DNA of 64,000 nt from Balanoglossus misakiensis (Eukaryota; Animalia; Hemichordata): NCBI GenBank assembly GCA_040954595.2, contig CM082582.2, positions 6,432,303 to 6,496,302 of the forward strand, read 5' to 3'. The stretch's first letter is position 1; every line of letters begins with the position of its first letter. Both the position numbers and the translations under genes were made by a program. The notes below the pieces were generated by a model. That model saw only the letters and a program-made list of their open reading frames with translations, was not told where the DNA came from and did not search any database. Of this stretch, positions 3,376 through 50,708 are shown piece by piece.

Positions 3376-6300
3376 ATGGCTACAGCAGAGGAAACTTGCG
3401 ATTCTATGCTCGGTTGGGGTGAGTACATTATATTGTGATTAAATTGCTTCGATGACACCGTGTGGCATTTAGGCCTATAGTTTGGACAGTGGTGTGAAGA
3501 TTTTCAAGATGGTTGGAGGGTAAGAAGACGCTGTTCTCCAGAGAACCTCGAGAAACATTCTTTGAGTGTTTATGGCTGCCACAGTGGCACAGCTTACAAA
3601 ACGAAAGGTCATTTGGGGGTTATTTGAAATAAAACTGATTATTCTGAAGGACCATATACAAAATAAATGGAGATAACCAATTTTAGTCTCGCAATTGATA
3701 CAGGCTTAAATGGGTGTAAAAGGAAAGAGGGATATGATGTGTAGACGTTCAATGGGCCCCAAAGTAGGCCTAGGTTTGAAGAATCAAGTAGGGACGGGAA
3801 ATTTCCAGATATAATTTTTTAGAACAGAGGTACTTTAAGAAACAATATATAATACAATTGATCTCCTCTGCCTTTACCAGATTTAAGGGAGCTTGGTCTA
3901 GGAAATGAACTTGTTCGGCAACTGGCATCTGTTCTGGACGACGATGACTCAAGGTGGCAGATGCTTGCTGAAAACCTCGGAATAGATGGGAAGACCAGCA
4001 AACGTATTGCGCAATGGAGCTTTGAGACGTGCACAAGCCCAACCGAAAATGTGATAACCGTCTACAAGAGCATGTCTCCAACTCCAACCTGGGGAGGGAT
4101 ATACCAAGCGCTTGAATGGATGGCTCAGGGTGGGGCGATGCGAGCGATGAAAGAACATGCCGACAAGCAGAGGTCAAAGTGCGGGGCTTCCACTGGCCAC
4201 CTGCAGGCGTATCACAATAAAACTCCGGGCAATCTGGGACGAAAATTGAAGAAGGGCATGTTGTCGGGGGAGTGCATGGACGCCCTGGGGAAGGTTCTCA
4301 ACCCCAGACACCCGCTTGGGTGCAACTGGAAGCTTCTCGCCCGCAAACTTGGCTACAGACAGGAAGTCATTCGAGATGCAGAAAGGCGGAAGTCCAACCC
4401 CACACTTCACATTCTGTTGCTATACCAATGCAAAACTAAAGCAACCCTGGGGATGCTGTACGAGATTTTACTCGGGATGGAGCGTAATGATGCCGTGTTG
4501 GTCCTGTGGGCCTACGATGAGCTTAAAGAGGGCGAGGAACCTTCACCGGACAGTGAGACTACATCTAAGCCAAAGGGGCACAGCTCAGAAACGGATGGTG
4601 CCAGTGGAAACACACTGTCAGATGATGAAGAGGAAGACGGTAGTGAGGACGATATGGACGATATGGATTTCAAGGACATGCTGTAAGCATGCATTTTTGC
4701 AGTGAATTCTGACTTGCACGAAACTGTCGCGAGAATATACTAGTATGTAGTAGTAAAACGTAGTGCAAGAAGTCAATAACTGTTGTCTGTTTTCCTTTCC
4801 AGTACACAAATGCTACAGATTCCCGAAATGAAAGAGCTTATGAAGGCTTTGGAACAGAGAGATGAAATGCTAAAGATGGGTCAGAATATGACCGGCATGT
4901 TAGGAAAAGCCATTGGTTGGCTTGGATGTCTGGCGGAGACTGCTGGTGAGTCAAGAAAAAAGTCACTGTGAATGGCTAGATGGTGTGGTGGAAAAATTTG
5001 ACCGTATGCCTTCAATGCAAGGTCTCTGGTACGAAATGTACTTGACAACTCTCGTTTCCTTGGACTATGCACGGACATGTATATATCCGCCATCAGAATT
5101 ATCCCTGTTTGATTACCGTAAGATCTGTACATGGATTGGATCTTACAGGTATGGATGTTGATCCCGAGGAAATAGGGTGCCCACTCGGTTCCCAGACGAA
5201 TGTGAACATTCATGGTGGCCAAGTACAATTCGGGCGTGTTAACCAAATAGTACAAGCTCTTCGTCAACTGGAGGGCAGCGCTGGACCAGGGCCTGCATTA
5301 ATCACGGGTCTACCCCATGAAGGTAAATTTGCACGACCTCGTAGACCGTTGTGCCAAATTTTAAAATATTGGTTTTATACTACATGTATGATATCTGGCT
5401 GATAAATACTATAGAACTCACGCCATCATGTTCTGAATATCGTAAATGAATCATGTACATCATACAGTCAGAACCTAGAAAACCTAGAGAACGAGACCCA
5501 ACAAATAGGCCGTTGTCCACAAATTCAAAAAATTAGTTCTTATGAATGTGAGAACAAACGCAAAGTGACCAACTACTCGATCTTTTGCTGTCGGTTTATG
5601 AATTTGCCCAAATTAACATATCCACATTACATCCTTCAAAGATTCACAATTTGCATTGCTTTCCACAGCCACCACGAGGACGAGGAAAATGGAAGGTGAG
5701 CTAGAGGAAATGGGTTTCCCCAAAGAGCATATAAAGAAGGTGTTGAAGCGGCATCCCAGGGTAGGTTTGTTTGTGCACTATAGGCCCCAGCTTAATTCTG
5801 TTGGCTCAAAACTGGCTGAATATATGTCATTTGCATGTGTGGATGTTTCAACGAAGATTCCTTTAGGTGAACAATCAGGCTTATCTCGTCATAGGTCTAA
5901 CAGTTCATAATTAGTGGGCACTAATTATGCCAAATTCTTAAATTGAAAGTCACATCTTCTTTTGTCTTGCAGGCAGACAAGGTTAAATTGATTCAATATC
6001 TTCTGAATATGAAAATGCGAGAACCAGACCGGGAAGTCAAAAGCGGGAAGCCCCGTAGGAGAAAATGGACCACAGAAGACAGTTCAGAGCTGCCTGGGGG
6101 CATGCACGACGAAGTCCCAAGGGGACCGAGAAAACCTGGGGATGGCGGCGAAGAAGAGCCACCGTTGCAACAGACCACTGTCGAAAAGGATGGCCCTGAG
6201 GCCGCAGATGAGCAGGCACGCGGACATCCGGTCCCTGAGGGGGATTCTCCGCCAGAGAGCCACGATCAAGAAAGCGTGGAGAGTTTGGGGGAGGGCGAGT

Positions 6301-8666
6301 TGGAAGATTCCTCTGATCAGCTGGCGAGCCAGTCACCTCTGAAGCATCCGGATAACACCGGAGGAGCTCAGGGAGAGATGCCCTGCAGTTTGGAGGCCAG
6401 TGGAGAACATGACGATTCCGCTGCCGTACAGGGGCAAATGTCCCCTGACAAGATTTCAAGTGGTGTGATTCAAGACCACCAGGAAATCAGTTCACTCGAT
6501 ATAGAACCATCGCACCAATCCAATGACAGTCCAACAGAACCTACGAGTGAATGTTCCGACATCTGTAGTGATGAGGAGTCAGTCCAGGCCGAAAATTCTG
6601 GGTGCAAACTCACCGAAAAAGAAACTACTGTAATGACGGTTGGTCCCGGCAGCCCAGACACAGCCACTGACCTCTCACTTACAGCTGACGCAGACAGCGG
6701 TATTTACTCTCTGTCCAGCGAACACATAACGGAAATTACAAGGAATCGCAGGACTATCATTTCTGACCAGGGTGCATATGGTCCAGTCTTTCAAGGTAAG
6801 TCTAAACTTATTCCAGTATTCGATTGTGATGCTGTTTTAAAAAGTGTGTGAATTTCATATCCTGGTAGTTAACAGTCATGCTAACGAACTGGTCTCTCGT
6901 TTGTCAGGGGTCTTTCCTTTCCAAGGTCCTCACATGGGAGCCAAGGTCGCTGTGAAAGTGCTGAGCGAGTCTGGAGACCACGGTGCAAAGGAATTTAGTA
7001 GGGTAGGGCGATACTACTGTTTATGCTCCATTATCTGTAACTTTTCGCCATATTTTTAGTATTCTTGCTTATGTATCTGCTGCAGTTCCTTGTTCAAATC
7101 AAGAAGCACAATGAAACGCCGGGCCCAATATCCAGCTTATGAACACATGCAACCACAACCTCAGTGGCAAGCACTACAGCCTCTCATGAGTTTTAAAATG
7201 TATACATCATCAGCGTGAGTTGATTGAATAGTGCTTGACAATTAAAAAACCAACATTAGCCAGCAGCGATTGTTTATTGACAGGAAAAAGATGTGGCTAC
7301 TGTCAAGCACCCCAATATCTTGCCAGTATATGGCGTATGTGATGAAGACAGGTATGTTTCTCGTATTATCAAAGTAACTCTTGTTCTTGTTATGCTGGTC
7401 TTCTGTTGATTGACTTTGAATGTTGGATTTGATTTAGCGAAACCCCGAGTATATTTATAAACACAATTCAGGTAAGTGGTATCATTTCATATACACTGGA
7501 ACTGTTTCGGATGAAGATAGGTATTTGTCTACAAATTCATGTATCATTTTAAATTGCTCCAAAAGTGGCTTGTTTCACGACATACTTATCAAGCTCTCAT
7601 CCAACCCCCCATTCTAACAGATGCATCCTGTATCCATACATGGAGAACAAAGATCTAGCCTGTCAGTTGAAAGTTGGGAATCCTGAACTAACATGGCGCA
7701 GGAGACTGGTCATAGCAATTGGCATTGCACGTGCGGTGTTGTGTCTGCATACACCCACCGAGCAGAGGTATCTAGCCTATATGCTCCAATTAGAATTTGC
7801 TGATGTTTCCTTTGAGTACTTAAAACAAAGGCTGTATTAGCGACTATAATGCCTGTTCGTGCATACGGCTACCAGATGGAAAATTTGTAATGCCTTGATT
7901 CTATTGGTTGGTCGCTCTATTAGCATTTGAGTTCCCCCACTCATGCCACATATCAAACGCTTTGATATGCTAAATACCTACGGCAACCAGATGGAAAATA
8001 GTAATGACTTCATTCTATTGGTTGGTCGCTCTATTAGCATTTGCATTCCCCCTCTGCTATTTCCGTGACACTTTTGCAAAAATCATAATGAGTAGTTCGT
8101 ACACATACGACGGTACGTCGTATACTCCCATGGGAGTCTCCACTAGACACTGCCAGTGATAACCATATAAGTAAGCCCGCTTATCCGTACATTTGTAGGC
8201 TTCTTAGAATTTTTCATCGCGATATCAAATCAGCTAACATCCTGCTGAATGGGTCGTGGTGGCCGTATTTAGGAGACACTGGGCTGACCAGAGAGATACC
8301 AGAGGAATGTGTGTACAAGTCGAGAACAGGTGGGGTACCTATGAGAACATTTGCATATTAAACACCATCTGGTCACTAAGAAAATCACTTGCACTGATTG
8401 TGATCACAATTCACAAATCATCCCAGGAAACGAATTTGCTGCACTCATGTGTTTCCATTTGACTTGTTTCTAAGGCACCAAATCCCATATCCCCGGCACA
8501 ATTGGATACAGCGATCCTTCATTGACAAACAAACCGGCGGGGTACTATGACGCAGCATGTGACGTGTACAGTTATGGCAAGGGTAAGAGATACTTAACAT
8601 TATTTTCAAATTAATTATAATGATATGCAATATATTGCAACAGACTTGAGTAGTTTCATAATGCCA

Positions 8667-8697
<31 letters not shown>

Positions 8698-8757
8698 CAT
8701 ACATACATACATACATACATACATACACTCACACTCACACTCACACTCACACACACA

Positions 8758-8820
<63 letters not shown>

Positions 8821-10227
8821 ACACATACATACATACATACATACATACATACATACATACATACATACATACATACATACATACATACATAGGACTACAT
8901 AAACAGAATTTTGCGTATAAAAATAATATAAAGTTTTCCCAAACACTTTTAGTCTTGTTAGAACTCTTCACTGGTACGCTGGCAAGTGCAACTGGCACAG
9001 ACGGTGATTTTGTTCACAACCAATGGGAGGACGATGGTCATTTTGAACAGGAAGATGAATTGGTGCAATTGGCTGATAACTCTAAATGTGTGGTGGGTAT
9101 CCAAAATACACACATTACTTTTCATGTACACTGATACAAGTTAATTGTCCACGCATAATGAGGTTCTTGGCCAACTCCATCATCTAACCTGCATAGCACT
9201 TTTCTTGCATTGCAGGGTTGGCCAGAAAGTGTAAAACAAGAAATTGCGAGAATCATCGTCTCGTGTTTGCTGAGGAAAAGAAGGGAGAGAGCAACATTTG
9301 ATGAAATTTGTGAAAAGTTGGAGGTAGGGCAGCGTTAACACTAACTTATAAAGAACCAGCACTGTTTCAGACGTGCACAATGTCCCTCTTTGTAGATGGC
9401 TTTTAGTACTCGAAGATTCGCTTGTGGCCCTGTTCTGGCAGAAACACATATTGTATATGAAGTATTCAAGTTCAGTATACAATCTAATCCCGTGTCACGG
9501 TCAATGCAACACTGAATTGACTTGAATTCATCCAATGTTATTGATGTTTCGAACTGAGAATGGACGTAAATGGCCACTGTGTCTTTCTCGCACTGAATAG
9601 GCATTGGCAGAGGACCACGGGGTGACACTTTTCGATGCTGCAAACTGCAGGAAGTGTTGCATGTGTCTCACAAACCCTGTCGGTAAGTTCAATCACCGGA
9701 AATGCATCAATCCGTCAACCAACAACTACTGCCTGTGATTGCACAATAGTATAGATTTGTCGCAGATTTTAGTTCATGGCACTGCAAGCCTTTGAATAGA
9801 TAGATACCCTTGGCCTGTCACGCAGTTATAGGGTTAGTTAGGGTATGGGGAATCTCTTGCAGATAATCAACTGCCTGCTCAACAACTTGCATTTGAACTT
9901 CTCGAACATGCACCAATTTTACTAGCATCATCAATACTCTTTCTTTCCCAACAGCTGATCAAGCTCTCCAGTGTGGATGTAAGGTTGTGTGTGCCGAGTG
10001 CATTCAGAATCGCAAATTTAACCACTTGGTTTGTCCGCAGCATGGACGTACACAACCAGCCAGTGGTAAGTTGTTGCACTGAAACATTCCATGACTGATA
10101 ATGTTCGTCTAAACCTGTACCATTTTATGTTCAATAGGAGTGTTGAAATACATCAATGATTAGGTCGCTTATCCACTCTTCCAATACTATTAAACGTTGA
10201 TTTCTTTCAGGTGAACAAAAATACTGA
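3376..10227 (+). CDS. Paralog A: tandem death domain - RHIM - UBA-like - acidic linker - IRAK/Pelle-like kinase - variant RING protein (about 1027 aa, 16 coding exons)
   Basis: Phase-consistent GT-AG exons: 3376-3418, 3881-4682, 4803-4945, 5149-5322, 5669-5760, 5973-6795, 6908-7002, 7284-7351, 7621-7767, 8199-8329, 8475-8582, 8953-9092, 9216-9323, 9601-9682, 9955-10065, 10211-10227 (last exon least certain). Death-domain motifs WQMLAENLG and NWKLLARKLGY..ERNDAV. RHIM NVNIHGGQVQFGRVNQI. UBA-like LEEMGFPKEHIKKVL. Kinase motifs GAYGPVFQG, VAVK, HPNIL, LTWRRRLVIAIGIARAVLCLH, HRDIKSANILL, GDTGL, GTIGYSDP, DVYSYG. C-terminal CCMC..CGC..CAEC..CPQH. Confidence 0.88.
5199..5249 (+). other. RHIM (RIP homotypic interaction motif) coding segment, paralog A
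   Basis: Translates NVNIHGGQVQFGRVNQI. The core tetrad VQFG resembles (I/V)Q(I/V/L)G, with the typical upstream aliphatic residue and downstream N at +3. Confidence 0.75.
7864..8043. repeat. Intronic imperfect direct duplication of about 65 bp
   Basis: TACGGC(T/A)ACCAGATGGAAAAT...ATTCTATTGGTTGGTCGCTCTATTAGCATTTG at 7864-7929 and 7979-8043. Confidence 0.8.
8668..8891. repeat. Compound microsatellite (ACAT)n-(AC)n-(ACAT)n
   Basis: Directly visible in an intron of paralog A. It accounts for the spurious HTYI and MYVC ORFs. Confidence 0.97.
9655..10043 (+). other. Variant RING-type zinc finger coding segment (split by one intron), paralog A
   Basis: Spliced translation CCMCLTNPVADQALQCGCKVVCAECIQNRKFNHLVCPQH has RING-like ligand spacing, with Cys at ligand 4 and His at ligand 8, and the CP of the last pair retained. 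Confidence 0.72.
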
Positions 10228-11703: not shown

Positions 11704-14700
11704 TTATTTGTCAACAGGAACAGTGATATTGTTCTTTTCAGCTAAGGCCTATTGAAAACAAAATAAGTAGGATTCAACTGCTGCACACTTAATTATAGAC
11801 ACTTCCTTCTATAACATTACACTGTGCTTTTTAAATGTTGATGCAATCTGTACCACACAACACAAGTATGCTAACCAATTATGATATTTGACTTAAGAGG
11901 TTTTTAAATAATCACAGAGACAAACTTATATACATCCAGAGTATATACAAGTATAAGCCCAATCATGCATTATGACCCCAGTAGTAGGGTGCTTTCTTCC
12001 AGAACATTGGGCCCAATTACACAACTATAGATTTTTGCTGTCCAAACAGTGCGCCAATTACTTGCAAACTAATTGTATTTCACACGACGAAAACAATATG
12101 GGACTTTTGATACAGAACAAACAATAATACAAAAATTATGTTCAACATCTGATTATACTTAGCAAAGATACCTCTAATTTCTTGCACGTGTCTTCTGTCG
12201 TGGATCGCTTCTTTCGTGCTGGATTCAAACATGAGATCACAATCTCTGCAAATTCTTTAGTTACAGCATTTTCTTGTGGATTAGGCCATCCCTGATTTTC
12301 AAGAGAACATGACAATTTTTCCAGTAATGTTTTTGTGGTAATAGTACTAAATCATGCATCATATGACATGTAAATTGCAAAAATTAACAAAATGAAGAGG
12401 ACAAGGCTAGACTGTATGTGGAGCCTAGCGAAATAACACTTAAGTCTTGATTCTAGACTATCATAAAATGAATTAAATCCAATTAACATACCACGGACGA
12501 TTCAACGGCCAATTCACACAGCATGTCAGGGTCAGAAAGACAACCATCATCAATCCATGTATTGTGCATGTAGTCTCCATCCTTTTTATCTTGGGCTAAC
12601 ACATTGGTTAAAAGTTCCATAAAAACTGTAAAATAGTCAAATAGTGCAGGTTTTATCACATCATACAAAGCAGGTTTCACACCCAGGCTGGAGTCACAAC
12701 CCCTTGCACAGAAATCAAACTTGAAAGTAAATATACCACACCAGGAACAGTTCTCCAGGTAAACTTAAGGATTAGACACCAAAGTAACATAAAAAATTCA
12801 CAAATGAAAATACTATTTCACGCACCTTTCCCCAGACTGTAAATATCGCAATAATCGTCATAGTAATTAGGGGGTTTTAAAATCAGTACATGGTCTTGAT
12901 ATCCACGTGTTCCACTGATACACAACTGAGAACCTAAACAGAGCAAAATAAAATGGTTCCATTAACATGTGTGCATGGTTTGGCGACATCATGTGGTTAA
13001 AATGGACAGTGCATTGGTAGATACTGGTATTTGCTTTCAGTCCATTCATCATTTTCAAGAAACTTAACAATGTTTGTTTGTAACAAATCATTGTCAATAG
13101 TCTCCAAACAGAGGATGAAGTTTATATGAAATGACCACAGGTATTATATAGGATCTGATCACTAAACAAATCACAAAAATATGTATAAATGTATGTACAT
13201 TATATAGAGTTGCATGCATATACTTGTACAAACATACATACAAACATACAAACATACATACATACATACATACATACATACATACATACATACATACATA
13301 CATACATACATACATACATACATACATACATACATACATACATACATACATACATACATACATAAATATGGACATGTACACATTAATCAATTTAACCTGT
13401 CATGGAGAGGTGTGATTTTTCCATAGCTGCTTCTCTAGTCAGTCCAGTGTCTCCTAAGTATGCCCTCCATAACGCATCAAGAAGTACATTAGCAGACTTG
13501 ATATCACGGTGATAGATCTTGAATTTCCTGTGGTACATTTATTCAGAAAAGAAAACAATGAATAGTGTCAAACTGCAACCTTCCAAACTCCAACTAACAA
13601 TATTCAGTACTTGATAAACTCTGCATATTTTTGCAGCAGAACTAAAGTTTAACATTTGGGAAATACAATTTCATGTTTCAATGAAATTCATCAGTGATAA
13701 TGTTGTAATGGTACTTTAGAAATTAGCAACTAAGTAAAATTTTCTCAGCAGTATCTGTAAGAAGTCACTCTGTGACATATCATTCCATGTCTTCACGTCA
13801 AAAATCAAAAACACACTGAAACTAAGCATAGCATAGTGTGTCTGGATATCATGTATGAATTATTGCATTACACCAGGGACCTCTACCTGTCTCCAGTTGG
13901 TGCAAGAAGGCAATGCAAAGCTCTGCACAGACAAATAGCGATCACCACTCTTCTCTGCCACGTCAATTCCGGATTTTTCTCTTTGATTTGATGAGCCAAG
14001 TCTCGATTCTTCATGTATGGATACACTATGCTCATAGGATATCTGTGAAAACATCAAAACAGGACAGTGTCTTAATTTTCACATGTTTGGTAGTGCTTAA
14101 AATTGGGTGTTTAATCATTGGTCATTAAGCTTAAATGCCATGATTTTCAAATTACTAGTATTACAATCCTACATATGCTTAGTATTGAACATTAAAAATA
14201 ATAACTTGTTTCAAATGACATTCCTAACTTAACTTTGAAAAAGTTGATAACAGCTAGTCAGCAGTGTGATGTAAATGTAGACCTCATCAAAAAGAACACA
14301 CTTCATGTAAATGACAAGAGAGTAATAAAGGAAATAATCGCAAGTCATTCACACCAAAGCACACATTGCAGGTAAACAAGAAACCCAGAACATTACCCTT
14401 CATCTTCACAAACCCCTAACACAGGCAAAATGTTTGCATGCTTAACACCAGCAACACTCTTCTCCTGAAATAAACAATTGGACAAATTATTTGTCTTAGT
14501 ATACACCATATCTCACAAATATCCGGTTATTGTATGATGTTCTGTAAGGTGACTACAAATCTTCACTTTTGAAATCTATGTAACCAACAGACAAACGTTT
14601 TTCAATCATCTGTAGGATAGCAGCCACTATTTTCAGAATGAAGAAAATGTCTCCTGACTATGATACTCTTCAAAAGACAGAGGGTATTGCAGAACTTGTC

Positions 14701-17700
14701 AAATAAAGAAAACTATTTGAAAATAATGGCATCTTTCTGTCCCTTTAATTGTTTATATACATGAACTCCGGCCAAAATGTCTCATTACCTGCAAGGGTAA
14801 AACAAAACAGAGCAGAACAATATCCATGTATCTACTTGTAAATCTATAGTTATCATTTCAACAAATAACTTGGCGAGTTGTTTCCACAAAACCTCCTACC
14901 CGTTTATACTCTCTTTCTCCATGAGTTCCACTGGTGTCAAGGATCTTCACGGCCACCTCCCTACCATTAAACACTCCTGTGACAAAGTAGAACAAGACCT
15001 TGTTAACTGTCACAACAGTGACGAGTACCATCCCTACTAAGTAACTAAAGTAAAGAATGGTAGCCACTCATTTCAGGCATAGGCATGTTTGAGTTATGGT
15101 TCTGGATACATAAAACTAAAATTGCTCAGACAAACCATGTACAAACTATTATTAAGTTATCCTTGTGCCACCTTTGAACACAAGACGATTAAGGTATTTA
15201 TCATTTAGAGCTTGGAACAAATGAACATGCAATGAAGGATTGCAAGACGGTGAAGGAGGAAGAAGATATACTCCTAGTATACAGCGTTTTTTCACCTTAA
15301 CCTAAGGCCAAGATACAGACAGTAGTAGGCAGGATACTTATAAATGAAACATGCCTTTATAAACTGGTCCAAATGCACCTTCAGAGGAAATAATTTGGTC
15401 TTCAGATCTGTTGTTGGTGATTTGTTGAATGTCCGCGGCATGCAAGACATATACACCAGTCTCTAATGTCTTCAGTGATGAGGGACTTTGGAGTTTTGAT
15501 GCCTCTCTCCCCTCTTCACCCTCACCCTCGATATTTAACTGGTGGCTTGTCAAGTTTGCTGAAGCACCTACAGCAGCAGCAATGTCACCTGGCTCTGGCA
15601 ACGTTCGTGCAACTGCATCTTCATTCGCGGCGCTAGGTTCCTGCAGCGATGGCATTCTGACATCCGGGATTGTATCTTCGGAAGGCGTCGCAGTGGGTGC
15701 ACCTGGCGTTGACATTGGTGACTCACTGCTTGCCATTTCAACAGGAGGCTCACTACCGACACTCCTTAACCTGAAATCCGTTTCATCTTCTGCTGCTGCC
15801 CTATCCATCTCTGAATCATTCCCTGGTTTTGATGGAGCCACGTCATCTTCTCTGTCCTGTCCTCTTGGTGGATTTCTATCAAAATCTGTCTGACCAGGAA
15901 CTCCATGGATGCCAACCTCTTGTGTTTCTTGAGGTGGATCATATGTACCTGTAGGCCAATCAGGGTTACCATCTATGCCACTTTGTGGTCGACCACCTCC
16001 TGGTGCCAGTAACTTATCAAATGACTCATCTTCAGGTGTTTCTTTCGCTTCTTCATGAACAATAGCAGAGTAGTTTGCTCCTGGCATTTGAGTGTGCTTC
16101 TTCAGTGACTTTGCCTCTGCAGCCCTTGTGTCATCTCGTCTTGGATCTGTCTGGGCCTGAATACCACGAGCTACCAGAGTATTATCTGAATCACTATTAT
16201 CTTCAGTCTGTGGCTGTAAGCTGGAATCAGGAACGACGTGTGTCACCTCTGATAAAGCTGCCGTTCTGAGACTGCCTGCCATCACCTCCTCCCCACCTCG
16301 TTGGGGAACTTCAGAGTCTTCAAATCTCACGCGTTGGTCTCTAGGAGTTGGCACTGTCGCTTCTGGAGCATTTTGCACTGAAGGCTGTGACGCATCACGA
16401 TGTGCTGCTGCGTGAGTGGGCACATCTCTGGGGACTGGTTCTATATCTTCTCTGGTACCTCCGCCAACAGTGTCCTGATTTGCGGCTCTGTGGTCAAGTT
16501 CTTCCGTTTGTTGAGGCCCAGGCCCTTCTGTTTGCGGCTGTGGGACATCTCTTCTGGTGAGTTGGTCTGCTGGTAGGTTCTGGGTTTGCAAGGAGGACCG
16601 TGGTACCTGTTGGTTGTTAGGGCTTGCAGACATGTCTATTCGTACAGGTGCTGTGCCTACACATGGCACAATGCCTACTGCTCCTTGCCGATCATCTGCG
16701 CCAGGTCCAGTAATATTTCTTGGTACCGGCCGTTGATCATCTTGACCAGGCGGTTGAATCTCTCTACCTTCCCCTCTATACCTTACTTCAGGGATTGGAC
16801 CATGGACAGTTTTACCAGGGGATCCCCTCTGATCTACATATTGAAGATCTGCTGGGAGTTGTTCGTCTACAGGCTGCTGCTGAGACAACTCTGCTTTTTC
16901 AAAGAACAGGTTTGCCAATTCATTTGCATCTGCCTATTGACAAATATAAAGGATAATACACGGTTAGCATAACTTACTATTATAAGCTGCAAGACAAGTT
17001 GGACAATTGTAAATTTGTATCATTGTACTTCTACATATCATGGTTGTAATCCTATCCTTGCATCTCATTATTTTCAGTGATTTAAAAACCAGTACAAGTC
17101 CAGTACCTGTGCTCTTTTTAGGAGTGGCTAACATCAGATGTTTACTGATCTTTATGTACTTTTACACAAAATAATTGTTCATTACACACAGACTTTTGCT
17201 TTATTTATCGTGCAGTTCATCAAAATAAAATTGATGGCATTCCCACCTCAGGATGCTTTTCAATCAACGTGTTAATTTCCTTTTCTGACAACCCAAGAGT
17301 TTTGAGGTGATCTTTCTTGATTGCAGTAGTCTCTTGCATTTGCATCAACAACCTGTCTGCTTGTGGAGCTTGTTCGCCTACACTGGGAGGAACAACTCTC
17401 GGTGCATCTATTGTCAATTGAAAAAATATATGAGTGAACATATTCAACATGACACTGAATTTGCAAGTTTGATTTTTTGACACAGTGTGTGTCGTAATCC
17501 AGTGACAAGAGAAATAGGTGTCGAGTATCTAACTTACTTGTTCTGGCGTCTCCTCCACCCTTCTTCTTACTCTTTTGTGGCTTTTTTGATGGTCTCTGAG
17601 TAGTTATGATTTGATTGTAATTTCCAATCTGTACATTGCCTCCAGTGATATTCATGACTGGAGGCGTGGACTGCAGAGGTGGCATTTGTACATCCATCCA

Positions 17701-20542
17701 GGATTCTTCAATAAAAATATGATATACAAAAATCCCTTTTGAATACCACAATATCAATTACAAGAAAACCTCTTGTACATGCACAAATGTATTATTCAAC
17801 CTCTGACTGTTACTGTACGTTAAAATGTAAACAGGTTAAATAATAAAGTGGTGCCGCACCCGTTTATTGAATCGGCCTCTAGTTGTAAGAGTACTATAAC
17901 ACAACTAAGCATGACATGCTCACATGCATATTCTAATTGTGACAAAATTCTAAATGGTGTGTTGTCTGTCAGCTAAGTTTGAGGAGAAATTTGAATTACA
18001 TTGTACATGTATTTGAGAATATGATAAAACTGGCAGCTCTTGGGGTTTTAAAAGGGATATTATATTCAACCAATGGACTATGTACATGAGCTGTTTATAA
18101 ATGGAAAAAAATCCAAAATTGCATGTCAATTTTACTTTATCATTAACGATTTATAAAACGAGAAAAATAATAGTTTAGTTCTACAATGGTATGAGACATT
18201 CCCACGTGAAAAAAAGAAATACAAATTTTGTCTTACCCATCTCTTCATCCTTATCAGATGCAAGGCTAAAGGCTCTATCAAACAAGTTATCCACGTCACT
18301 AATGTCTGTGAAAATACATAAAACTTGACAGCTCAGTCTTTTTCACCGATTTTCAAAGGTACAAACACCCCAACATCAATGAATAAACATCAAACATTTT
18401 ATGTGGCAAAACTAATGAGTGGTACTCACAACCACAATATGCAACATCATAATGTACCTACCACCTGTTCTACTTGCTTGCCTTGTAGCTCTCCTGGCTT
18501 TGTCATCTCTAATACCCAAACCTTCTAACTGTTCTACTACTGTTTTTATATCATCAGGTGTTGGATGCCATGATCTGTGAAAAAGATCAAATGATACATA
18601 AGTGTGTATCCTATAGTACATTAAATGTTACTGTGAAAATGTCTATCCTTTGGTGTGATGTATCCTCCACTGCTGAAACAGATTTAGTGCAAAAAAGTAC
18701 AGTACCCTCTCCATTGGTCCAAGGTTCAACTTTTTCACAATATTTTTCAAAAGCTATCAGTTGGACCAGTTGGGATGGGATACGTGAACCATTAAATGGA
18801 ATATACCTGGCTGTTCTTGGTCTCTGCTCAGACATTTGTCTTGCTGTTTGTCTCAGGACTGGTCGGTCACTGTAGGCAGTATAGGGCAAGCTTTTAGTTG
18901 CTGGTGGGCTCAGACTATCTCTGACGGATTCCTCTTCAGTCAATTCTCCGTTTTTCCACAACAGGTAGATGACATCAAACCTTGGCATGGCCGCCAAAGC
19001 ACTGCATAGTTCCCCGATTGTAGCGCCCAATTTGCACTGGAAATCCTGTAGCAATGCAAGGGCCTTGTTACTCTTTAGCTCAAACTGGGAAATGTGATTT
19101 GGATGGTACCTCAATCTATCGGCCAGCAGTTTCCAGTCTTTGCGCAGCGGGTGTGGCACATTGAGAAGCTTGCTCACTTCGCTCAAGCAGCTATGACCCA
19201 ATTGTTTAGCCCTCAGCGTGCGCTGGGGATTAGCTGGTCTGTCCCATCCAACCGGCAGGCTGTCTGAAGCACTCTCTGATGAAAGATTTAACTCCCGCAC
19301 ATGTACCACTAATCTTTCCTCTGCATCAGCCCTGTTCATCGTTCTCAATGCCTTGTGCAAGCCTTGCCATGTTGGCAGCTCACTTTGCGTTCGGTAAATT
19401 TTCAGCACGCACTCTGTTGGGGATTTTTCGAGTTCCAGGGTTGAAATTATGTGGGAATCATCGTATCCCAGATGCACGGCTAGCATTCTCCAGTCATTTC
19501 CCAGAGGGTTTTCGGGATCCAAGTACATGGACAAATCAATGATGCAGGAGTGGGGCAAAGGATGATCCCTCAAGTCTGAAAGATTGCAAGAGAACATACC
19601 ATATATTTTGGCATCAACTAAGTGGATTTGCTCAACCCTTACCGGTATTACTGAACACTTTGCAGGCAGACAGACAGACCGACAGACAGACAGACCAGCA
19701 AATCTTGACTCACTGACAGATTACCCACAACACAAACTATCAGAGGTCGCGCTTGGATTTTTGGCTGCGAGTATTTTTTGACGCGTCCATAGAAAATGAT
19801 GTGTCAAATTTTTCCTCCCCAACATTGTTGAGTTAATTTGCTTTTTGAGCTCTGTATTTTATGAAATGTTCTAACAGGGAAGGGGGACACCCCCTCCCAC
19901 ATCCACCCCCTTAACTTCTCTTGATTTACTATGTCTGCCAACTATCATAATGACTTGTATTTTCAGTTTATTCACGTCTTATTTTAATTATTTAAATTTA
20001 TTCAGATATGCAAATTGTCAGTTATTCATTCGCTAAGTTTTTGAAAGTTTGCATGGGGGGTCACCCACTTTTCAATTTCCAATGACGGGGGTGGGGATCA
20101 CCCCCTTTTTGATATAAAAAAATAGAATCCACCCCCAACCCCCGGCTAAAGAAACTGACCAGTCCCTTAATAGGGTCATGATAGGTTGCCAAAACAACTA
20201 GTAACTATGCGTATCATAGTAAATTTTTGTACTTGACACAAGTCCACTGCGCTGTTCACCAAGTTGTCCACGGGTGCTCGTATTATTAATGGAATAGTCT
20301 ATCGAGGGCGACGTGCGAGATTACGAGTTCGAGGCCGAAGGCCGATCGACCCTCTTCGGCCTTGATCGGCCTCACACTTACACTCTCGGACATCCGGGCC
20401 CTTGATCGATAAAGACTATCCAATCACGATCATTGTGTCGTTTATCCTTCTTGTCATGGCAGAAAGGAGACGCGTGAACATGAACTTGAATAGTTCTTCC
20501 TTACTTACCCCAAGCAGGAAGTAATGTTGCCATTTCTCCCAT
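11704..20542 (-). CDS. Paralog B: tandem death domain - UBA-like - RHIM - UBA-like - long acidic linker - IRAK/Pelle-like kinase, no RING (about 1243 aa, 15 coding exons)
   Basis: Phase-consistent exons (minus): 20542-20509, 19575-18807, 18574-18462, 18305-18237, 17705-17538, 17407-17247, 16933-15355 (GC donor), 14976-14900, 14464-14397, 14042-13887, 13527-13397, 12933-12826, 12625-12492, 12291-12172, 11748-11704. Motifs NDWRMLAVHLGY..MNRADA, DWKLLADRLRY, RHIM MNITGGNVQIGNYNQI, EGAFGPVYKG, VAVK, LTWQRRVVIAI, HRDIKSANVLL, GDTGL, GTRGYQD, DIYSLG. Kinase exons of 68, 131 and 108 nt equal those of paralog A. Confidence 0.88.
13232..13364. repeat. (ACAT)n microsatellite
   Basis: Directly visible in an intron of paralog B. 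Confidence 0.97.
17608..17658 (-). other. RHIM coding segment, paralog B
   Basis: Translates VMNITGGNVQIGNYNQI, with a canonical VQIG core close to the RIPK1 (IQIG) and RIPK3 (VQVG) tetrads. Confidence 0.85.
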
Positions 20543-22077: not shown

Positions 22078-24050
22078 CTAATCGGTATATTTCTTCACAT
22101 TATTATATCTGTATAACGGCCTCTTTCGTCGAAGAAGGAAAATTGTCATGTGCACGTGTTCTTGATGATCACAAAACGGCCTTATCATTTGCATTAGCAA
22201 ACTAAACCCGCCACTCACCATTAATCGAACTCTGAAATGAGAGTTCATGCCTTTCCGTCGTCTTCTGCCTGGCGGCGGTGTTCGGACGTCCCCTCTCTCG
22301 AAGACGCTAACGAAACGATTGGGATTGTGGACGGATTCAAACTGCATGTAATGTCCATCTACCAGTCTGTAGCGGAATCGACACTCGGGACCACCCTTTC
22401 CCTGAAATCCGATAACAATCATGATTATGTTTCGCTTAAAAAGGAAAGGTCGTGTGGAGTGACCGTGTTTGAACTGCACAAAATCTCATCGGAAGCTGAA
22501 GTATGGCATTGCTGAAAATTCGATATATCTGTACATGTATACACAGGCGGCCTGACCAATCTATGACAACACGATACTTCACCATTCTCTGGGTTAAAAT
22601 TGCTCAGAAAGCGTTTTTGTGCCGTCGTGACATGCCGAATAACCGGCAATACTAATACCTAGGAACTCCCGATAAAGTTTCTCTGCGTGTACACAAATGT
22701 TTCGTTACGGTTGAGAGTTCAATAAACGAACACAATTAAGCCATTGGTTTTAGGATACTGTCTTAATATCGAGCCAAACTCCTGGAATGCATATATCAAT
22801 AGCCGAGGAAGGCGGGATACAGTCACCATCCGAGGACGGGGTAACAATCAGGTTTATTGTCGCAACAACGAGAAAGTCTTCATCCCGACACAGGATATGC
22901 TATGCGCTTTATACGGTAATGGAGAGGGTATAGTGCCGCTCAACTGTTAATAGCTTAAATGAGGACGAAAAGCAGTCACTTACATTTGCCGAGAGGTCTC
23001 CGTCGCGAAGAATGAGAAAATTGACCGGGTTGGCCAGACATCTTAGAGTCACAATGTCATCGCCGTTGATATTAGTTACAATAAACATAGCTAGAACGAA
23101 AAGCACATACAACGTACTTTTAATATTAAATGGAGATTACATTTTACATAAAACGTGCTCTCTCTCTCTCTTTCTCTCTCTCTGTTACATGTAACACGAC
23201 AGCAAAAATATTAAGAAACGCCAATAAAATATTTACGGTTTTCTGATGGTAAAGAATTTCTTTGACGAGATCTCATGTCAGTGACCTGGATTTACTTACA
23301 TTGGACGCCGTTTGTACCCCCTCCATCAATCTGTCCTGTCCTGGCATGTACGCGGAGACACTTGCCGCTTGACCGAGACACAAACTGTATGACATTCCCC
23401 GTTGACAAATCGCGTACCTATAGTAATGGATGACACAAAGCTTGACGTTCGAACAATCAATATAACCACAATATCATATATTGTTTCAGTATCAGTAAAT
23501 ACAGACTCGGCTGGTTAGAATCGACGTACGCCGCACACCTTGTCTACAAAAATAGATCGCTTTTTGGTGGGAATGGCTCGGGACGTCAATCCTGGTCTAT
23601 CGTACAAGTCAATTCATACTAGAATGTCGTGGTTAAATTGTGTAGTCGGGAGACGAGCGGTGAGTGCTCGGGTGAAACACTAAAGTTGTCTGAGTGGGAC
23701 AATCGAAGGGGGAAATATTGAAAGTTATAATACAGTAACTTACGTACTATCAGTACATATAAATGAAAGCGTATACACTCACCGTAATTCCAACAGGGTG
23801 TTCCACGCCGTATAGACCAATACTTGAGTTATGGTACACTACTGTCTGTGACGTCAAATGAATTGAAGAAAAAAGATAAATGAACCATTAAAATGTACAT
23901 TAATTTTTGTCAGTGTTCCTGTTAATTCGTGCATATAGTATTAAAATTGGCTATTTGGCAAACAAGATACGCAGACTTTACCTTTTGAAGTTCACTTGAT
24001 CTCAGGGGAGCTCCATAACCATACGCACTGTAGGGCCTTGCAGCTGCCAT
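22078..24050 (-). CDS. Leaderless FGF-like beta-trefoil protein (about 194 aa)
   Basis: Exons 24050-23982, 23845-23783, 23417-23300, 23090-22984, 22401-22219, 22122-22078 splice in frame. Three beta-trefoil repeats: NVIQFVSRSSGKCLRVHARTGQIDG..F, DIVTLRCLANPVNFLILRDGDLSANGKGGPECRF and YMQFESVHNPNRFVSVFERGDV..HF. No hydrophobic signal peptide. The two 5' exons are less certain. Confidence 0.7.
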
Positions 24051-27265: not shown

Positions 27266-30200
27266 ATGGCGGACGTTGAGCTTTATGAAGTCCTTGGCGT
27301 TAACAAAAACGCAACTGACGCCGAAATTAAGAAGGTATGCTGGTTTTATCCTCACGTGTCTTGTTCTGCGAATATGTGTTCGAAAATTTGTCCATGAATC
27401 GTCTGATTTGATGTCCACGCCGCTGTGAAACGTGGTAGAAATGCGAATACCAATTTACGAAGATCATTGTGCGTATTGTTCATTTCGCCGGTATGATACT
27501 ACATCGAGTGCGTGCCATAAGCGGAAATGACCTAGCGCATCATGTCTTCACGTGCTCTCGCTCAAATCCACCGCAAGCCAATGTCAGTCACCCTGAATAT
27601 CGCTATGTTCACTTTATAATCCACTACCCGTCACAAGTATTTCCATATTGAGTTTCCCTAATGTTTTACGCCATTAAATTTGGCACAAGATCTAGATCAC
27701 TTTACGACTACGGTAGACATAATGTCATTTCTTTAGGCAAGAATCCCCCCCCCCCCCGCACCGGGATTAATTCACCCATGACAATGAAGGGTGAAGTTGT
27801 TGAGAAAGTATGTTTATTCTAAATGCATGATTTTAGCGTGGAAAAGGGAAAGGGAAATGTGAGATTATTTCATTGCCTGTTGTGAGTTCATCGTCGACTC
27901 TGACTCCAACCTTGGCCATGGACAAACTCTTTTTGTATAATCTACGCTCATAGGTTCAAGTATGCATTGCTGTGTGTGGTTTTCATGTTTCTGTATATTA
28001 TTTTTTTTTTGCAGGCATACAGAAAATTAGCCAAGGAATTTCATCCAGACAAGAACCCTCAACATGGAGAGAAGGTATAAAAGCACTATAATTTTGTTGC
28101 AGATAACAGCATTTCTGACCTTATTTTAATAAGAAAAATTCTCCTCTTTGAGAAAGCCATAAAATGAACATCGGAATATGATGTGCTCATTTGTTTGTGA
28201 TTGAGGTATTTTTAGCTGCCAGTAAACACCTATATATAGCAGTGGATTTTTACCAAATTGGTTGTATATGTATGTACTGACCGTTACGTATGTATGCATG
28301 TACATACATTTGTCTATCCATCTGGTGACTACAAAAATTTCTCAACCACTGGATGGCATCACTTCAAAAGTTAACAAATACATATAATTATATTTATGGT
28401 ATAAACTAATTGATATTATTCCCTTTATTAACAGTTCAAGGAAATAAGTTTTGCTTATGAAGTTCTTTCAAACCCTGAAAAGCGTGAAACATATGATCAG
28501 TATGGCATGGAAGGAATTCGAGGTGAAACAGGACCTGATATGTTTGGTGAGTACACGTAAAACATGCAACGTGTGATTATTTAACCCTTTCACCACCATG
28601 GTGTGGTCCAAATCCATTGTTTTCTTCTTACTTCTTAACATGTACTTGATATGATATACTGTGAGTTTAAATTTTCGATTCTATGCTTAAGTGTTTTATA
28701 ATTATTTCTTTTTTGTTACCACAGGTGGTGAAGACATTTTCTCTCATCTATTTGGGGGTGGTATGTTTGGTGGAATGTCTGGTTTTGGCGGTGGCGGGAG
28801 ACGAAGGAAACAAAGGGGGGAAGACACAGTTCATCCACTAAGGTAATAATAAGTGAGAGTGGGTTTTCTGACAAGTCATGTATTTGCTCTCCTTATAGTT
28901 AGCAGCAGGATTGTCACTGAGTTAATGATGAGGCCTTCAGTTATGGTTAAATATACAAATATACAAACTGTAGCATGCACATATTGTGTACCAAAAAAAA
29001 TTGGCTGAAGAGAATTTTTGTTGACTGACAGAAACCATGTAAATAGTACTTTTATTTTCTTTCCTTTGCGAGTCTGACAGTGTTTCTTAGTGTTTTGGGC
29101 GCTGCAGTATTTGTACCAATCCCGACCTTATTCTTGCATTTTGTTTAGGGTAACATTGGAAGACCTGTATAATGGCAAAACGGCCAAGTTACAATTGAGC
29201 AAGAATATTATATGTCGTATCTGCAACGGGTAAGTCAGTCTTGCTGAATAGATACATATGAACATCAATAAGACATGGAAATGACCATCAGTTCAACCTG
29301 TATCCCATCCGTCCATCCACCCATCCATTAACTGTATTTTTGATGTGTCACAGGCAAGGCGGCAAGCAGGGTGCAATGCAGACTTGCAGGGTGTGTCACG
29401 GCCGTGGTGTCAAGGTCACAATCCGGCAACTCGGCCCCGGCATGGTGCAGCAGATGCAGTCGGTGTGTCCCGAGTGCCACGGCGAAGGTAAGGCTCAGAT
29501 CTCTCCTCGCTGAAAGATAGCATGCAGACGAGTTTAACTCTGTCACTCCATATGGTGTGAAGACAGACAGAGAGCACTGTGTTGACTATCTGTGAAGCAG
29601 CAGTAATCTTTCTCTCACTCTATCGACCAGTGATGTGATAATGTACCCTGTTCACTTCACAGGCGAAACAATTAATGAAAAAGACAGGTGTAAAACTTGT
29701 CATGGTAAGAAAGTGGTGAAAGAGTCGAAAATACTACAAGTGCACGTGGAAAAGGGCATGAAGGATGGGCAGAAAATTACATTCCGCTGGGAAGGTGACC
29801 AAACGGTAAGTGATATCCTGTCTTGTCCGTACATGCATTTTTTTACTGTGCAGATTCTGATGTGTCTGCAGGCTGCCGTGGGTGGGACTGTGTATTCTTG
29901 ATATCACAAAAAAGGTCTAGAAGGACGGCTTTGTCCCTTTAAGCCTTTCACCCATCAGTTCCGTCTTCAGAGGTCTAACCTTACCTTAGAAAACAATGGG
30001 TTTGGACTGAACCATGGTGGTTAAAGGAGTTAACAGACTGCTTGAGAGGGGAAGCGATGAAGAGCCCAGTCTGTTCAGAAGCAGGGCAGCGTAGTCAAAA
30101 CCTGGTCAACACGAAACTTACCCGACGCAGTCCACTGGTACTTGTCGGACGTGAACACCAAATCAGCTGCTTTCCCTCAGCCTGAGCGCCGAGCCTAACT

Positions 30201-31442
30201 CAACTTACCGTTCCATTTCTGCTTCCACAGCCCGGTCTTGAACCTGGAGATGTAATCATAGTTTTACAGCAGAGAGAGCACGATGTTTTTCAACGTAGCG
30301 GCGTCGACCTCTACATGACACACTCCCTGGGCATAACAGAGGCACTATGCGGATTTCAGTTCCTTTTCAAACATTTAGATAGCAGGGAAATATGCGTTCG
30401 ATATCCTCCAGGGAATGTCATTTCCCCAGGTGAGTTAGGCCTATTCTATATATGTTTGTACCATTATGCATTTATAGCAGTAACTAGGTAAGAAATAAAC
30501 TTGAAAAAAAAAATTTGTTTGGTGGTATAAGTGAAATGAAAATTAGAATAACACTACATATTTTTTTCCAAAATAAATGTATGTTGCTTCAATTGGAAGA
30601 AAGATGCAGGATTTCAGAGTGGTTTCCGTTTCCCAATATTTATGGATACTGATTACTGTATATACTGTATAAAATCCTTTTTGCAGGATGCACACGCTGT
30701 GTTGTTGGTGAAGGAATGCCGGTGTATAAGAATCCATTCGAGAAGGGAAATCTATACATCAAATTTGACATTCAGTTCCCCGACAATAACTTCCAAGATG
30801 AAAGCAAGCTGAAGGTAATTATCGGCAGTCAAAATACATTGTGAGCTTGGCTTATAGAAGTGTTTAGGTTTCTTCATTGTACCTTTACTCTTTCAAAGTC
30901 AAGACCAAAAAAAAAAACATCAACAACAGAGATTTTAGTGATTGGCAAACTTCTAAGTGGCTTCCAATATTTACAAATGCATAATGGTCACAACTCTCTA
31001 AGTTTTGAATCACCAGCATTTGTGATAGGATAGTGGAAGCTTTGCAACCATTTCGTTTTTGTGTTGGAAGCTAAGAAAGTACAGCATAGAAAGAATCATT
31101 TGAAGGACTTTATTCTCTTTACAAAAATATTCCTGTGTTACGGTCTGCCTTTCGGTGCGCCTATTTGCCTCTCAGTTCACTGTCAGTTGTAGCATATTGT
31201 CCAATACACCTTGCCTGGGTTCCGCCTGAGGGGTAACTGTCTGGTTCTTTTTGCAGTTGCTGGAAAAGCTGCTGCCACCTCGGCCAAAACAAGTCGTCCC
31301 GGAAGGCGCGGAGCCAGAGGATGTGGACTTGATGGAGTACGACCCCAGACATTCGTCGAGTAACTCGCGACGCGAAGCATATCACGACGAAGACGACGAG
31401 GACATGCATCAAGGTCACGGAATGCAGTGCGCTCACCAATAA
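27266..31442 (+). CDS. DNAJA2: DnaJ homolog subfamily A member 2 (Hsp40), about 10 exons
   Basis: [13 protein letters not shown]-domain FHPDKNP, G/F-rich region, four zinc-finger repeats ([32 protein letters not shown]), [17 protein letters not shown], and C-terminal CaaX CAHQ as in vertebrate DNAJA2. Confidence 0.95.
28581..28625. mobile_element. Truncated copy of the TTAA-flanked mini-MITE
   Basis: TTAACCCTTTCACCACCATGGTGTGGTCCAAATCCATTG matches the left half of the element at 40822. Confidence 0.65.
29939..30033. mobile_element. Diverged inverted copy of the TTAA-flanked mini-MITE
   Basis: TTAAGCCTTTCACC...CAATGGGTTTGGACTGAACCATGGTGGTTAAAGGAGTTAA is the reverse-complement homolog of 40822-40914. 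Confidence 0.7.
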
Positions 31443-50468: not shown

Positions 50469-50708
50469 ATTTGCGTCTGTAAAGGCTCGGTTCGGATGAT
50501 AATTAATACATAAAGCTGAAGTCAAATTAACATAAAATTTCAGACAAATTATGATTTGGGACACATTTAAAATATATATACATAAAAAACTTTCTTAAAA
50601 TATAAAAATTAACAAAATATAAGTAAAGATAAGGATTGCAATGCACTACGCTCGGGAAAGAGGGTGCTAAATCTTGTTGCATGACGGGATACCGCGGTAA
50701 AATTCAAC
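50469..50708. promoter_or_regulatory. Compact bidirectional promoter of UBA2 and HAUS4
   Basis: Only 240 bp separate the two divergent start codons. Confidence 0.75.

What the first reader, a model, noticed from the sequence alone, without database searches (positions are those of the whole stretch)
5199..5249. RHIM with atypical VQFG core in paralog A
Seen: NVNIHGGQVQFGRVNQI aligns with paralog B's MNITGGNVQIGNYNQI although the rest of this phase-1/phase-1 exon has diverged, so the motif appears selectively conserved. Established: the RHIM tetrad drives amyloid assembly and position 3 is usually I, V, L or C. Inference: Phe could change partner specificity, favour A/B hetero-amyloids or modulate fibril growth.
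Basis: partly seen in the sequence, partly recalled or inferred. Interest (0 to 1): 0.72.

Follow-up and report, generated by a model that had tools for sequence, protein, structure and literature searches.

The report
RHIM motif in acorn-worm IRAK-like kinase
The peptide is real and conserved, and is likely an amyloid-type signalling motif (RHIM) inside an undescribed acorn-worm immune kinase; its supposedly odd phenylalanine is a known working variant, and the orthologue has methionine there instead.

Summary
Observation confirmed. The VQFG peptide lies in a phase-1/phase-1 exon (5149-5322) of a 16-exon, 1027-aa gene model A: two death domains, RHIM-like motif, UBA-like domain, Pelle/IRAK-type kinase, RING-like finger. 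A tail-to-tail paralog B carries VQIG. The 16-residue motif is 11/16 identical both to B and to the Ptychodera flava orthologue, against 12-33% in the exon flanks. 
The emphasis on Phe fails. The orthologue reads VQMG, so the motif is kept and the Phe is not. VQFG is also a published natural RIPK3 tetrad (7 vertebrate species). In human RIPK3 it gave about 57% of wild-type NF-kB activity and wild-type-like ZBP1-dependent death (PMC12119088). A itself has no Pfam RHIM hit; 2 of 7 family motifs hit weakly, below the cut-off. Fibril formation and A/B co-assembly are untested. 
What is new is the host protein: a hemichordate/amphioxus/Lingula kinase family of the RLK/Pelle/IRAK clade, not RIPK, several members of which carry a RHIM-like motif. 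I found no description of it in the paper searches. Verdict: new variant of a known kind; the Phe is ordinary.

The parts
5202..5249 (+). RHIM-like motif of gene A (aa 348-363); tetrad VQFG at 5223-5234
5149..5322 (+). Gene A exon 4, phase 1/1, carrying the motif; the P. flava short isoform resumes at the homologous exon start
3376..10227 (+). Gene A model: 16 exons, 1027 aa, DD-DD-RHIM-like-UBA-like-kinase-RING-like; 42% identical to P. flava XP_070576017
3881..4682 (+). Gene A exon 2: two death domains (Pfam Death E 2e-18, 2 stretches) and an acidic tail
5669..5760 (+). Gene A exon 5: start of a UBA-like domain (Pfam UBA E 0.003, below cut-off); confident three-helix bundle in the orthologue model
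6693..9323 (+). Gene A kinase domain over eight exons; RLK/Pelle/IRAK clade; VAVK lysine, alphaC Glu and HRD present, DTG in place of DFG
9601..10065 (+). Gene A RING-like finger over two exons (zf-C3HC4_3 E 0.03, below cut-off; 27/46 identical to the orthologue)
11704..20542 (-). Paralog B model: 15 exons, 1243 aa (needs one GC-AG intron at 15354); tail-to-tail with A, 1476 bp apart; ends at a stop before the RING
17608..17655 (-). RHIM-like motif of paralog B, tetrad VQIG; the exon's only PDB hit at E<=10 is the RIPK3 RHIM fibril chain 6jpd (E 0.29)

Best explanation
The peptide is a conserved motif in a spliced death-domain kinase gene, and it likely acts as a RHIM that would stack gene A molecules into a cross-beta signalling polymer, with Phe3 likely a tolerated hydrophobic variant rather than a specificity switch. 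Shown: the motif, its exon, its conservation in paralog and orthologue, Met at position 3 in the orthologue, and the domain order DD-DD-motif-UBA-like-kinase-RING-like. Inferred: the tandem death domains recruit the kinase to a MyD88/p75-type death-domain scaffold; local crowding nucleates RHIM stacking with itself or with another RHIM protein such as B; and clustering of kinase, UBA and RING domains drives ubiquitin-dependent NF-kB-type signalling. By analogy with RIPK3, Phe may lower output modestly but would not abolish it.
For: Conservation. Family motifs at the same position (before the UBA-like or linker region, upstream of the kinase) in 6 of 14 family proteins scanned: A, B, P0004, P0002, P0006, P0035. 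Tetrads are VQFG, VQMG and four VQIG; the strict pattern hit 0 of 138 non-family proteins and the relaxed one 4 of 138. Pfam RHIM PF12721 is the only family hit among 7 aligned motifs (P0006 15.7 bits, E 0.011; P0002 12.4 bits, E 0.12). B's exon hits the RIPK3 RHIM structure. A profile built from VQIG motifs alone ranks the A-type motifs first among the non-training hits in 162 proteins; 0 of 2000 shuffles of A reach A's 7.3 bits (B was in the training set, so this shows kinship, not independent RHIM status). The motif has no proline and one charge in 18 residues, and carries the N-x-hydrophobe last strand described for RHIMs. The orthologue model shows no fold over the motif (pLDDT about 25; weak evidence with only 8 aligned rows). 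VQFG works in RIPK3.
Against: A, B and the A orthologue have no Pfam RHIM hit at all, and the two family hits are below the 20-bit cut-off. A's exon hits no RHIM structure; its one PDB hit is an unrelated lipid-transfer protein (E 0.98). Profiles of the motifs hit an aspartyl protease, TOFU-6 and an acyltransferase (E 0.2-2.2) and no RHIM entry; P0006's motif hit nothing. The first strand sits one residue closer to the tetrad than in RIPK3 (gap). Eight of 14 family proteins lack the pattern (some are partial models). The kinase has DTG for DFG, so activity is uncertain. No partner, pathway or fibril was tested.
Confidence: 0.6

Rival explanations
1. The A lineage has its own RHIM subtype (H-G-G loop, bulky unbranched residue at position 3, V-N-Q after the glycine) that sets partner choice: either it is orthogonal to B-type VQIG motifs or it prefers A/B heteropolymers.
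For: A and its orthologue both replace the beta-branched Ile by Phe or Met and share H at -4 and V before the Asn, where B has Tyr. VQFG lowered NF-kB but not death in RIPK3, which the authors suggest may reflect hetero- versus homo-amyloid differences. The A/B duplication predates the split from P. flava.
Against: It rests on two sequences. Phe itself is not kept. Tetrad position 3 varies widely among natural RIPK3s. No binding data.
Confidence: 0.17
2. In the A lineage the motif is no longer amyloid-forming: it is a RHIM-derived short linear motif (hairpin plus following amphipathic helix) that binds a folded partner or the protein's own domains.
For: No Pfam or PDB RHIM hit for A-type motifs. 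The residues after the motif have higher helix than strand propensity in A (1.12 against 1.00; recalled Chou-Fasman values), and the L-R pair after the motif is shared with the orthologue. A similar string occurs in a folded TOFU-6 domain.
Against: All RHIM-type positions (two hydrophobes, Q, G, N-x-hydrophobe) are kept in A, B and the orthologue. The helix excess is not seen in the orthologue (0.91 against 0.88). The model shows no fold there.
Confidence: 0.18
3. The motif is a functionless relic of the duplication, or the exon is not used.
For: No expression evidence was obtained for this species.
Against: Synonymous-biased conservation, conservation across species, an intact frame over 16 exons, and the exon is present in both annotated P. 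flava isoforms.
Confidence: 0.05

Closest known systems
Vertebrate RIPK3 with the natural VQFG tetrad (Fay et al., eLife, PMC12119088)
   Same: Identical tetrad; listed for 7 species (fish, reptile, rodent, bat, eulipotyphlan) and functional in human RIPK3.
   Different: RIPK3 has an N-terminal RIPK kinase, a C-terminal RHIM and no death domain. Here the motif lies between death domains and a C-terminal Pelle/IRAK-type kinase.
RIPK1 (kinase-RHIM-death domain), including lancelet, mussel and Lingula RIPK1-like proteins
   Same: Kinase, RHIM and death domain in one chain.
   Different: Reverse domain order, two death domains, extra UBA-like and RING-like domains. All 59 PDB hits of the orthologue at E<=1e-12 are plant RLK/RLCK-type or IRAK1/3/4 kinases; none is named RIPK1 or RIPK3.
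IRAK4 / IRAK1 / Pelle
   Same: N-terminal death domain, C-terminal kinase of the RLK/Pelle/IRAK clade; Tyr at the gatekeeper position (IRAK hallmark, recalled); top fold matches include IRAK4.
   Different: Known IRAKs have one death domain and no RHIM, UBA or RING (recalled). Identity to IRAK4 structures is about 25%, plant kinases score higher, and DTG replaces DFG. Orthology to any IRAK was not tested.
Branchiostoma RHIM proteins (Kajava et al. 2014, PMC4262963) and insect cRHIM proteins (Imd, PGRP)
   Same: RHIM-like motifs shuffled into varied invertebrate immune architectures, with relaxed tetrads (cRHIM VxxG).
   Different: The text read names no IRAK-type kinase and no hemichordate (0 hits for IRAK or Saccoglossus). 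Its Fig. 1 architectures are an image I could not see.

Membership tests
RHIM | Core tetrad (V/I)-Q-(V/I/L/C)-G as in reviews | tested here: not met
   A has F at position 3; consensus. Natural functional RHIMs also break it, VQFG included.
RHIM | Pfam PF12721 at or above 20 bits | tested here: not met
   A no hit; best family member 15.7 bits.
RHIM | Upstream hydrophobic strand, conserved Gly, downstream N-x-hydrophobe | tested here: met
   feature described. The loop is one residue shorter than in RIPK3.
RHIM | Located in an unstructured linker of an immune signalling protein | tested here: inconclusive
   Lies between death domains and a UBA-like domain; pLDDT about 25 in the orthologue model, which had a shallow alignment.
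RHIM | Selective conservation across homologues | tested here: met
   11/16 against paralog and orthologue; flanks 12-33%.
RHIM | Forms cross-beta amyloid and mediates tetrad-dependent homotypic binding | not testable with these tools
   Needs bench assays.
RIPK1/RIPK3 kinases | N-terminal RIPK-type kinase followed by the RHIM | tested here: not met
   The kinase is C-terminal and matches RLK/IRAK structures.
RLK/Pelle/IRAK kinase clade | Kinase domain closest to IRAK and plant RLK kinases | tested here: met
IRAK1-4 / Pelle orthologue | Groups with a known IRAK or Pelle in a tree | not tested
   The tree held no known animal IRAK or Pelle. Its 12 outgroup rows were multi-kinase proteins, several with plant-type domains.
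IRAK1-4 / Pelle orthologue | Canonical catalytic motifs (VAVK, alphaC Glu, HRD, DFG) | tested here: inconclusive
   K, E and HRD present; DTG for DFG; the first Gly of the G-loop and the APE Glu are absent.

The most novel reading that the evidence does not exclude
Invertebrate deuterostomes have an undescribed family of Pelle/IRAK-type kinases that signal through a RHIM amyloid, joining death-domain (myddosome-like), amyloid (necrosome-like), ubiquitin (UBA, RING) and, in amphioxus and Saccoglossus relatives, caspase-like modules in one chain. The A paralog evolved a distinct VQ[F/M]G subtype that sets which paralog it polymerises with.
Probability: 0.25. Interest if true: 0.72.

Novelty: new variant of a known kind. 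Interest (0 to 1): 0.4.

Why it matters
The Phe does not matter much: it is a published, working RHIM variant and is not kept in the orthologue. If the motif proves to be a true RHIM, the host protein would extend amyloid signalling to Ambulacraria, where a recent survey reported RIPK1-like proteins without RHIM (PMC11507063). It would also place a RHIM on the IRAK/Pelle branch of the kinome rather than on RIPK. The A/B pair, with natural F, M and I at position 3, is a ready-made test of whether tetrad position 3 sets RHIM partner choice.

Tried and rejected
Homologue searches with the death-domain exon, alone and as an A/B profile, found nothing. One kinase exon as a profile found the two P. 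flava proteins (2 of 123 candidates). No RNA holder was listed for the locus; this is no evidence either way. No whole genome is held for this window, so other RHIM proteins of this animal, MLKL included, could not be sought. ESM Atlas gave only low-score unnamed clusters for the exon and no usable hit for the orthologue's N-terminal 400 aa. PDB profile searches with the motifs returned chance hits. Two structure papers were not held, so the orientation of tetrad position 3 in the fibril is not documented here beyond the passages. A search for the Imd core string LHFG (recalled) found 0 occurrences in the listed papers, so I do not use it. Rejected: RIPK1/3 identity (domain order, kinase matches); a chance tetrad (shuffles); Phe as a conserved innovation (orthologue has Met). 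Earlier scan notes held nothing on this locus or family; the 8 listed of 74 RHIM notes concern other genes.

Full report
OBSERVATION. Window 5199-5249 (+) encodes the quoted peptide, with the tetrad VQFG at 5223-5234. Splice sites give a 16-exon model A, 3376-10227, of 1027 aa with no internal stop; the motif is in exon 4 (5149-5322), phase 1 at both ends. A paralog B lies tail-to-tail on the minus strand (20542-11704; 15 exons, 1243 aa, needing one GC-AG intron), with VQIG in a phase-1/1 exon. Both are my predictions from sequence; neither has transcript support here.

IS IT MORE THAN CHANCE? Yes. The two exons align with local score 56, reached by 0 of 20000 shuffles. The motif has 10/16 identities ungapped (11/16 gapped), against 1/39 ungapped (5/18 and 5/24 gapped) in the rest of the exon. 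Seven of the 10 identical residues use different codons, and it is the only 16-aa window outside the kinase with 11 identities. The window was chosen after seeing the match, so the contrast is descriptive; the synonymous bias (6/3/10 differences by codon position) and the cross-species result below are the firmer evidence. A bare tetrad arises in about 16% of shuffled proteins; the full spaced pattern in 0-1 of 20000.

THE HOST PROTEIN. Exon 2 holds two death domains (Pfam E 2e-18; best PDB matches MyD88 and p75NTR). After the motif come a UBA-like domain (below cut-off; a confident three-helix bundle in the orthologue model), an acidic linker, a kinase and a RING-like finger (below cut-off). 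The kinase belongs to the RLK/Pelle/IRAK clade: all 59 PDB hits of the orthologue at E<=1e-12 are plant receptor-like or IRAK1/3/4 kinases, and the listed fold matches are plant receptor-like kinases and IRAK4. It keeps VAVK, the alphaC Glu and HRD but has DTG for DFG. It is therefore not a RIPK1/RIPK3.

HOMOLOGUES. A kinase-exon profile found two Ptychodera flava proteins. P0004 (XP_070576017, 1007 aa) is colinear with A at 42% identity. A full HMMER search with it (best 150 listed, mostly multi-kinase proteins) added ten relatives that I picked by score and alignment span; these are named from P. flava, Glandiceps, Saccoglossus, three Branchiostoma species and Lingula. In a 25-row kinase tree, A pairs with P0004 (98/99) and B with P. 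flava P0007 (100/99), inside a hemichordate clade (99/97). The 13 family rows stand apart from 12 outgroup rows (100/100); isoforms and P0100 were left out, and no known animal IRAK or Pelle was included. The window is therefore most likely an acorn worm (inference), and the A/B split predates the split from P. flava.

THE PHE. The orthologue's motif is 11/16 identical to A's (flanks 6/18 and 3/24), but its tetrad is VQMG. Six of 14 family proteins scanned carry the pattern: VQFG (A), VQMG (P0004) and VQIG (B, P0002, P0006, P0035). P0031 has a looser VIIG version that the pattern missed. In print, Fay et al. (PMC12119088; I read passages, section 8 and supplementary files 13 and 30) list VQFG in RIPK3 of 7 species and other xQFG tetrads in 17 more, with IQFG in RIPK1 of 5. 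Placed in human RIPK3, VQFG gave mean NF-kB 18.5 against 32.2 for wild type and 2.5 for AAAA, and ZBP1-dependent death 7.5 against 7.0 and 1.3 (means computed). Phe is off the textbook consensus (V/I)-Q-(V/I/L/C)-G (passages of PMC13506858 and PMC9444067) but is a known working variant with at most a modest tuning effect.

IS IT A RHIM? For: Pfam RHIM is the only family hit among seven aligned motifs (P0006 15.7 bits, P0002 12.4); B's exon has the RIPK3 RHIM fibril chain as its only PDB hit (E 0.29); a VQIG-only profile picks the A-type motifs first among non-training hits (0 of 2000 shuffles); the motif has the N-x-hydrophobe last strand (passages of PMC11325021), no Pro and one charge; and the context is an immune-type death-domain kinase. 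Against: A, B and P0004 have no Pfam hit, and the two hits are under the 20-bit cut-off; A's exon and the motif profiles find only chance PDB hits; the loop is one residue shorter than in RIPK3. By the formal tests A is RHIM-like, not a proven member; by function it most likely works like one.

MECHANISM (inferred). The death domains would dock the kinase on an upstream death-domain scaffold; crowding would nucleate stacking of the motif, with A itself or with a VQIG partner such as B; and the polymer would cluster kinase, UBA and RING for ubiquitin-dependent NF-kB-type output. An annotated P. flava isoform drops residues 16-286 (both death domains) and resumes at the motif exon; the same skip keeps the frame in A (945 nt) and B (951 nt). 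That would make a RHIM-first kinase recruited by the motif alone. These are NCBI predicted models whose transcript support I did not check. I give this reading 0.6, an A-specific subtype that sets partner choice 0.17, a non-amyloid linear motif 0.18, and a relic 0.05.

NOVELTY. The tetrad is known. RHIMs in varied invertebrate architectures are known (Kajava et al., PMC4262963; parts 1-3 of 4 of the text read; Fig. 1 and supplement not seen, and they could show such a protein). A RHIM-like motif in a Pelle/IRAK-type kinase with tandem death domains, UBA and RING was not seen in the listings of the paper searches; 'RHIM' with 'hemichordate' returned one paper, on sea cucumber RIPK/MLKL (passages read). 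Passages of PMC9573974 and PMC2575513 did not describe it. The library lacks most subscription journals. Verdict: new variant of a known kind, interest 0.40; the finding as titled (atypical Phe) would alone rate about 0.2.

Noticed in passing
window 11748-11686 (-): Paralog B has an in-frame TAA at 11706-11704 just before the RING. No RING remnant was found downstream, while its P. flava orthologue P0007 keeps the RING: a lineage-specific loss of the finger.
   Followed up: partly
P0003 vs P0004; window 3419-5148 (+) and 20508-17706 (-): A P. flava isoform skips both death domains and starts almost directly with the RHIM-like exon; the same skip is in frame in A and B.
   Followed up: partly
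P0033, P0034, P0035, P0041, P0100/P0158, P0140, P0119: Relatives of the kinase carry a C-terminal caspase-like domain (Branchiostoma, Saccoglossus, Glandiceps) or a trypsin-like domain (Lingula), and swap the N-terminal death fold among DD, DED and CARD. Amphioxus members have HCD for HRD.
   Followed up: partly
P0031 (P. flava XP_070576019): Kinase-less relative with four death domains, a VIIG RHIM-like motif and several UBA-like repeats; its accession is next to those of the A and B orthologues. Candidate adaptor or decoy.
   Followed up: no
P0035 (B. lanceolatum) aa about 115-145, 250-290: Several RHIM-like strings in one protein: one full VQIG motif, a second partial VQIG, and an N/G-rich strand repeat after the death domain.
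   Followed up: no
window 18574-18237 (-): B has a second UBA-like element before the motif (UBA_7 E 0.03), so its motif is flanked by two.
   Followed up: no
window 15354 (-): B's open frame requires a GC-AG intron.
   Followed up: partly
window 22081-22485 (-), 29596-30488 (+), 39752-41592 (-), 45000-50594 (-): Neighbours: FGF-like exon (E 0.008), DnaJ, a DUF3689 protein and a ThiF/E1-type activating enzyme. Housekeeping context, no further immune cluster seen.
   Followed up: no
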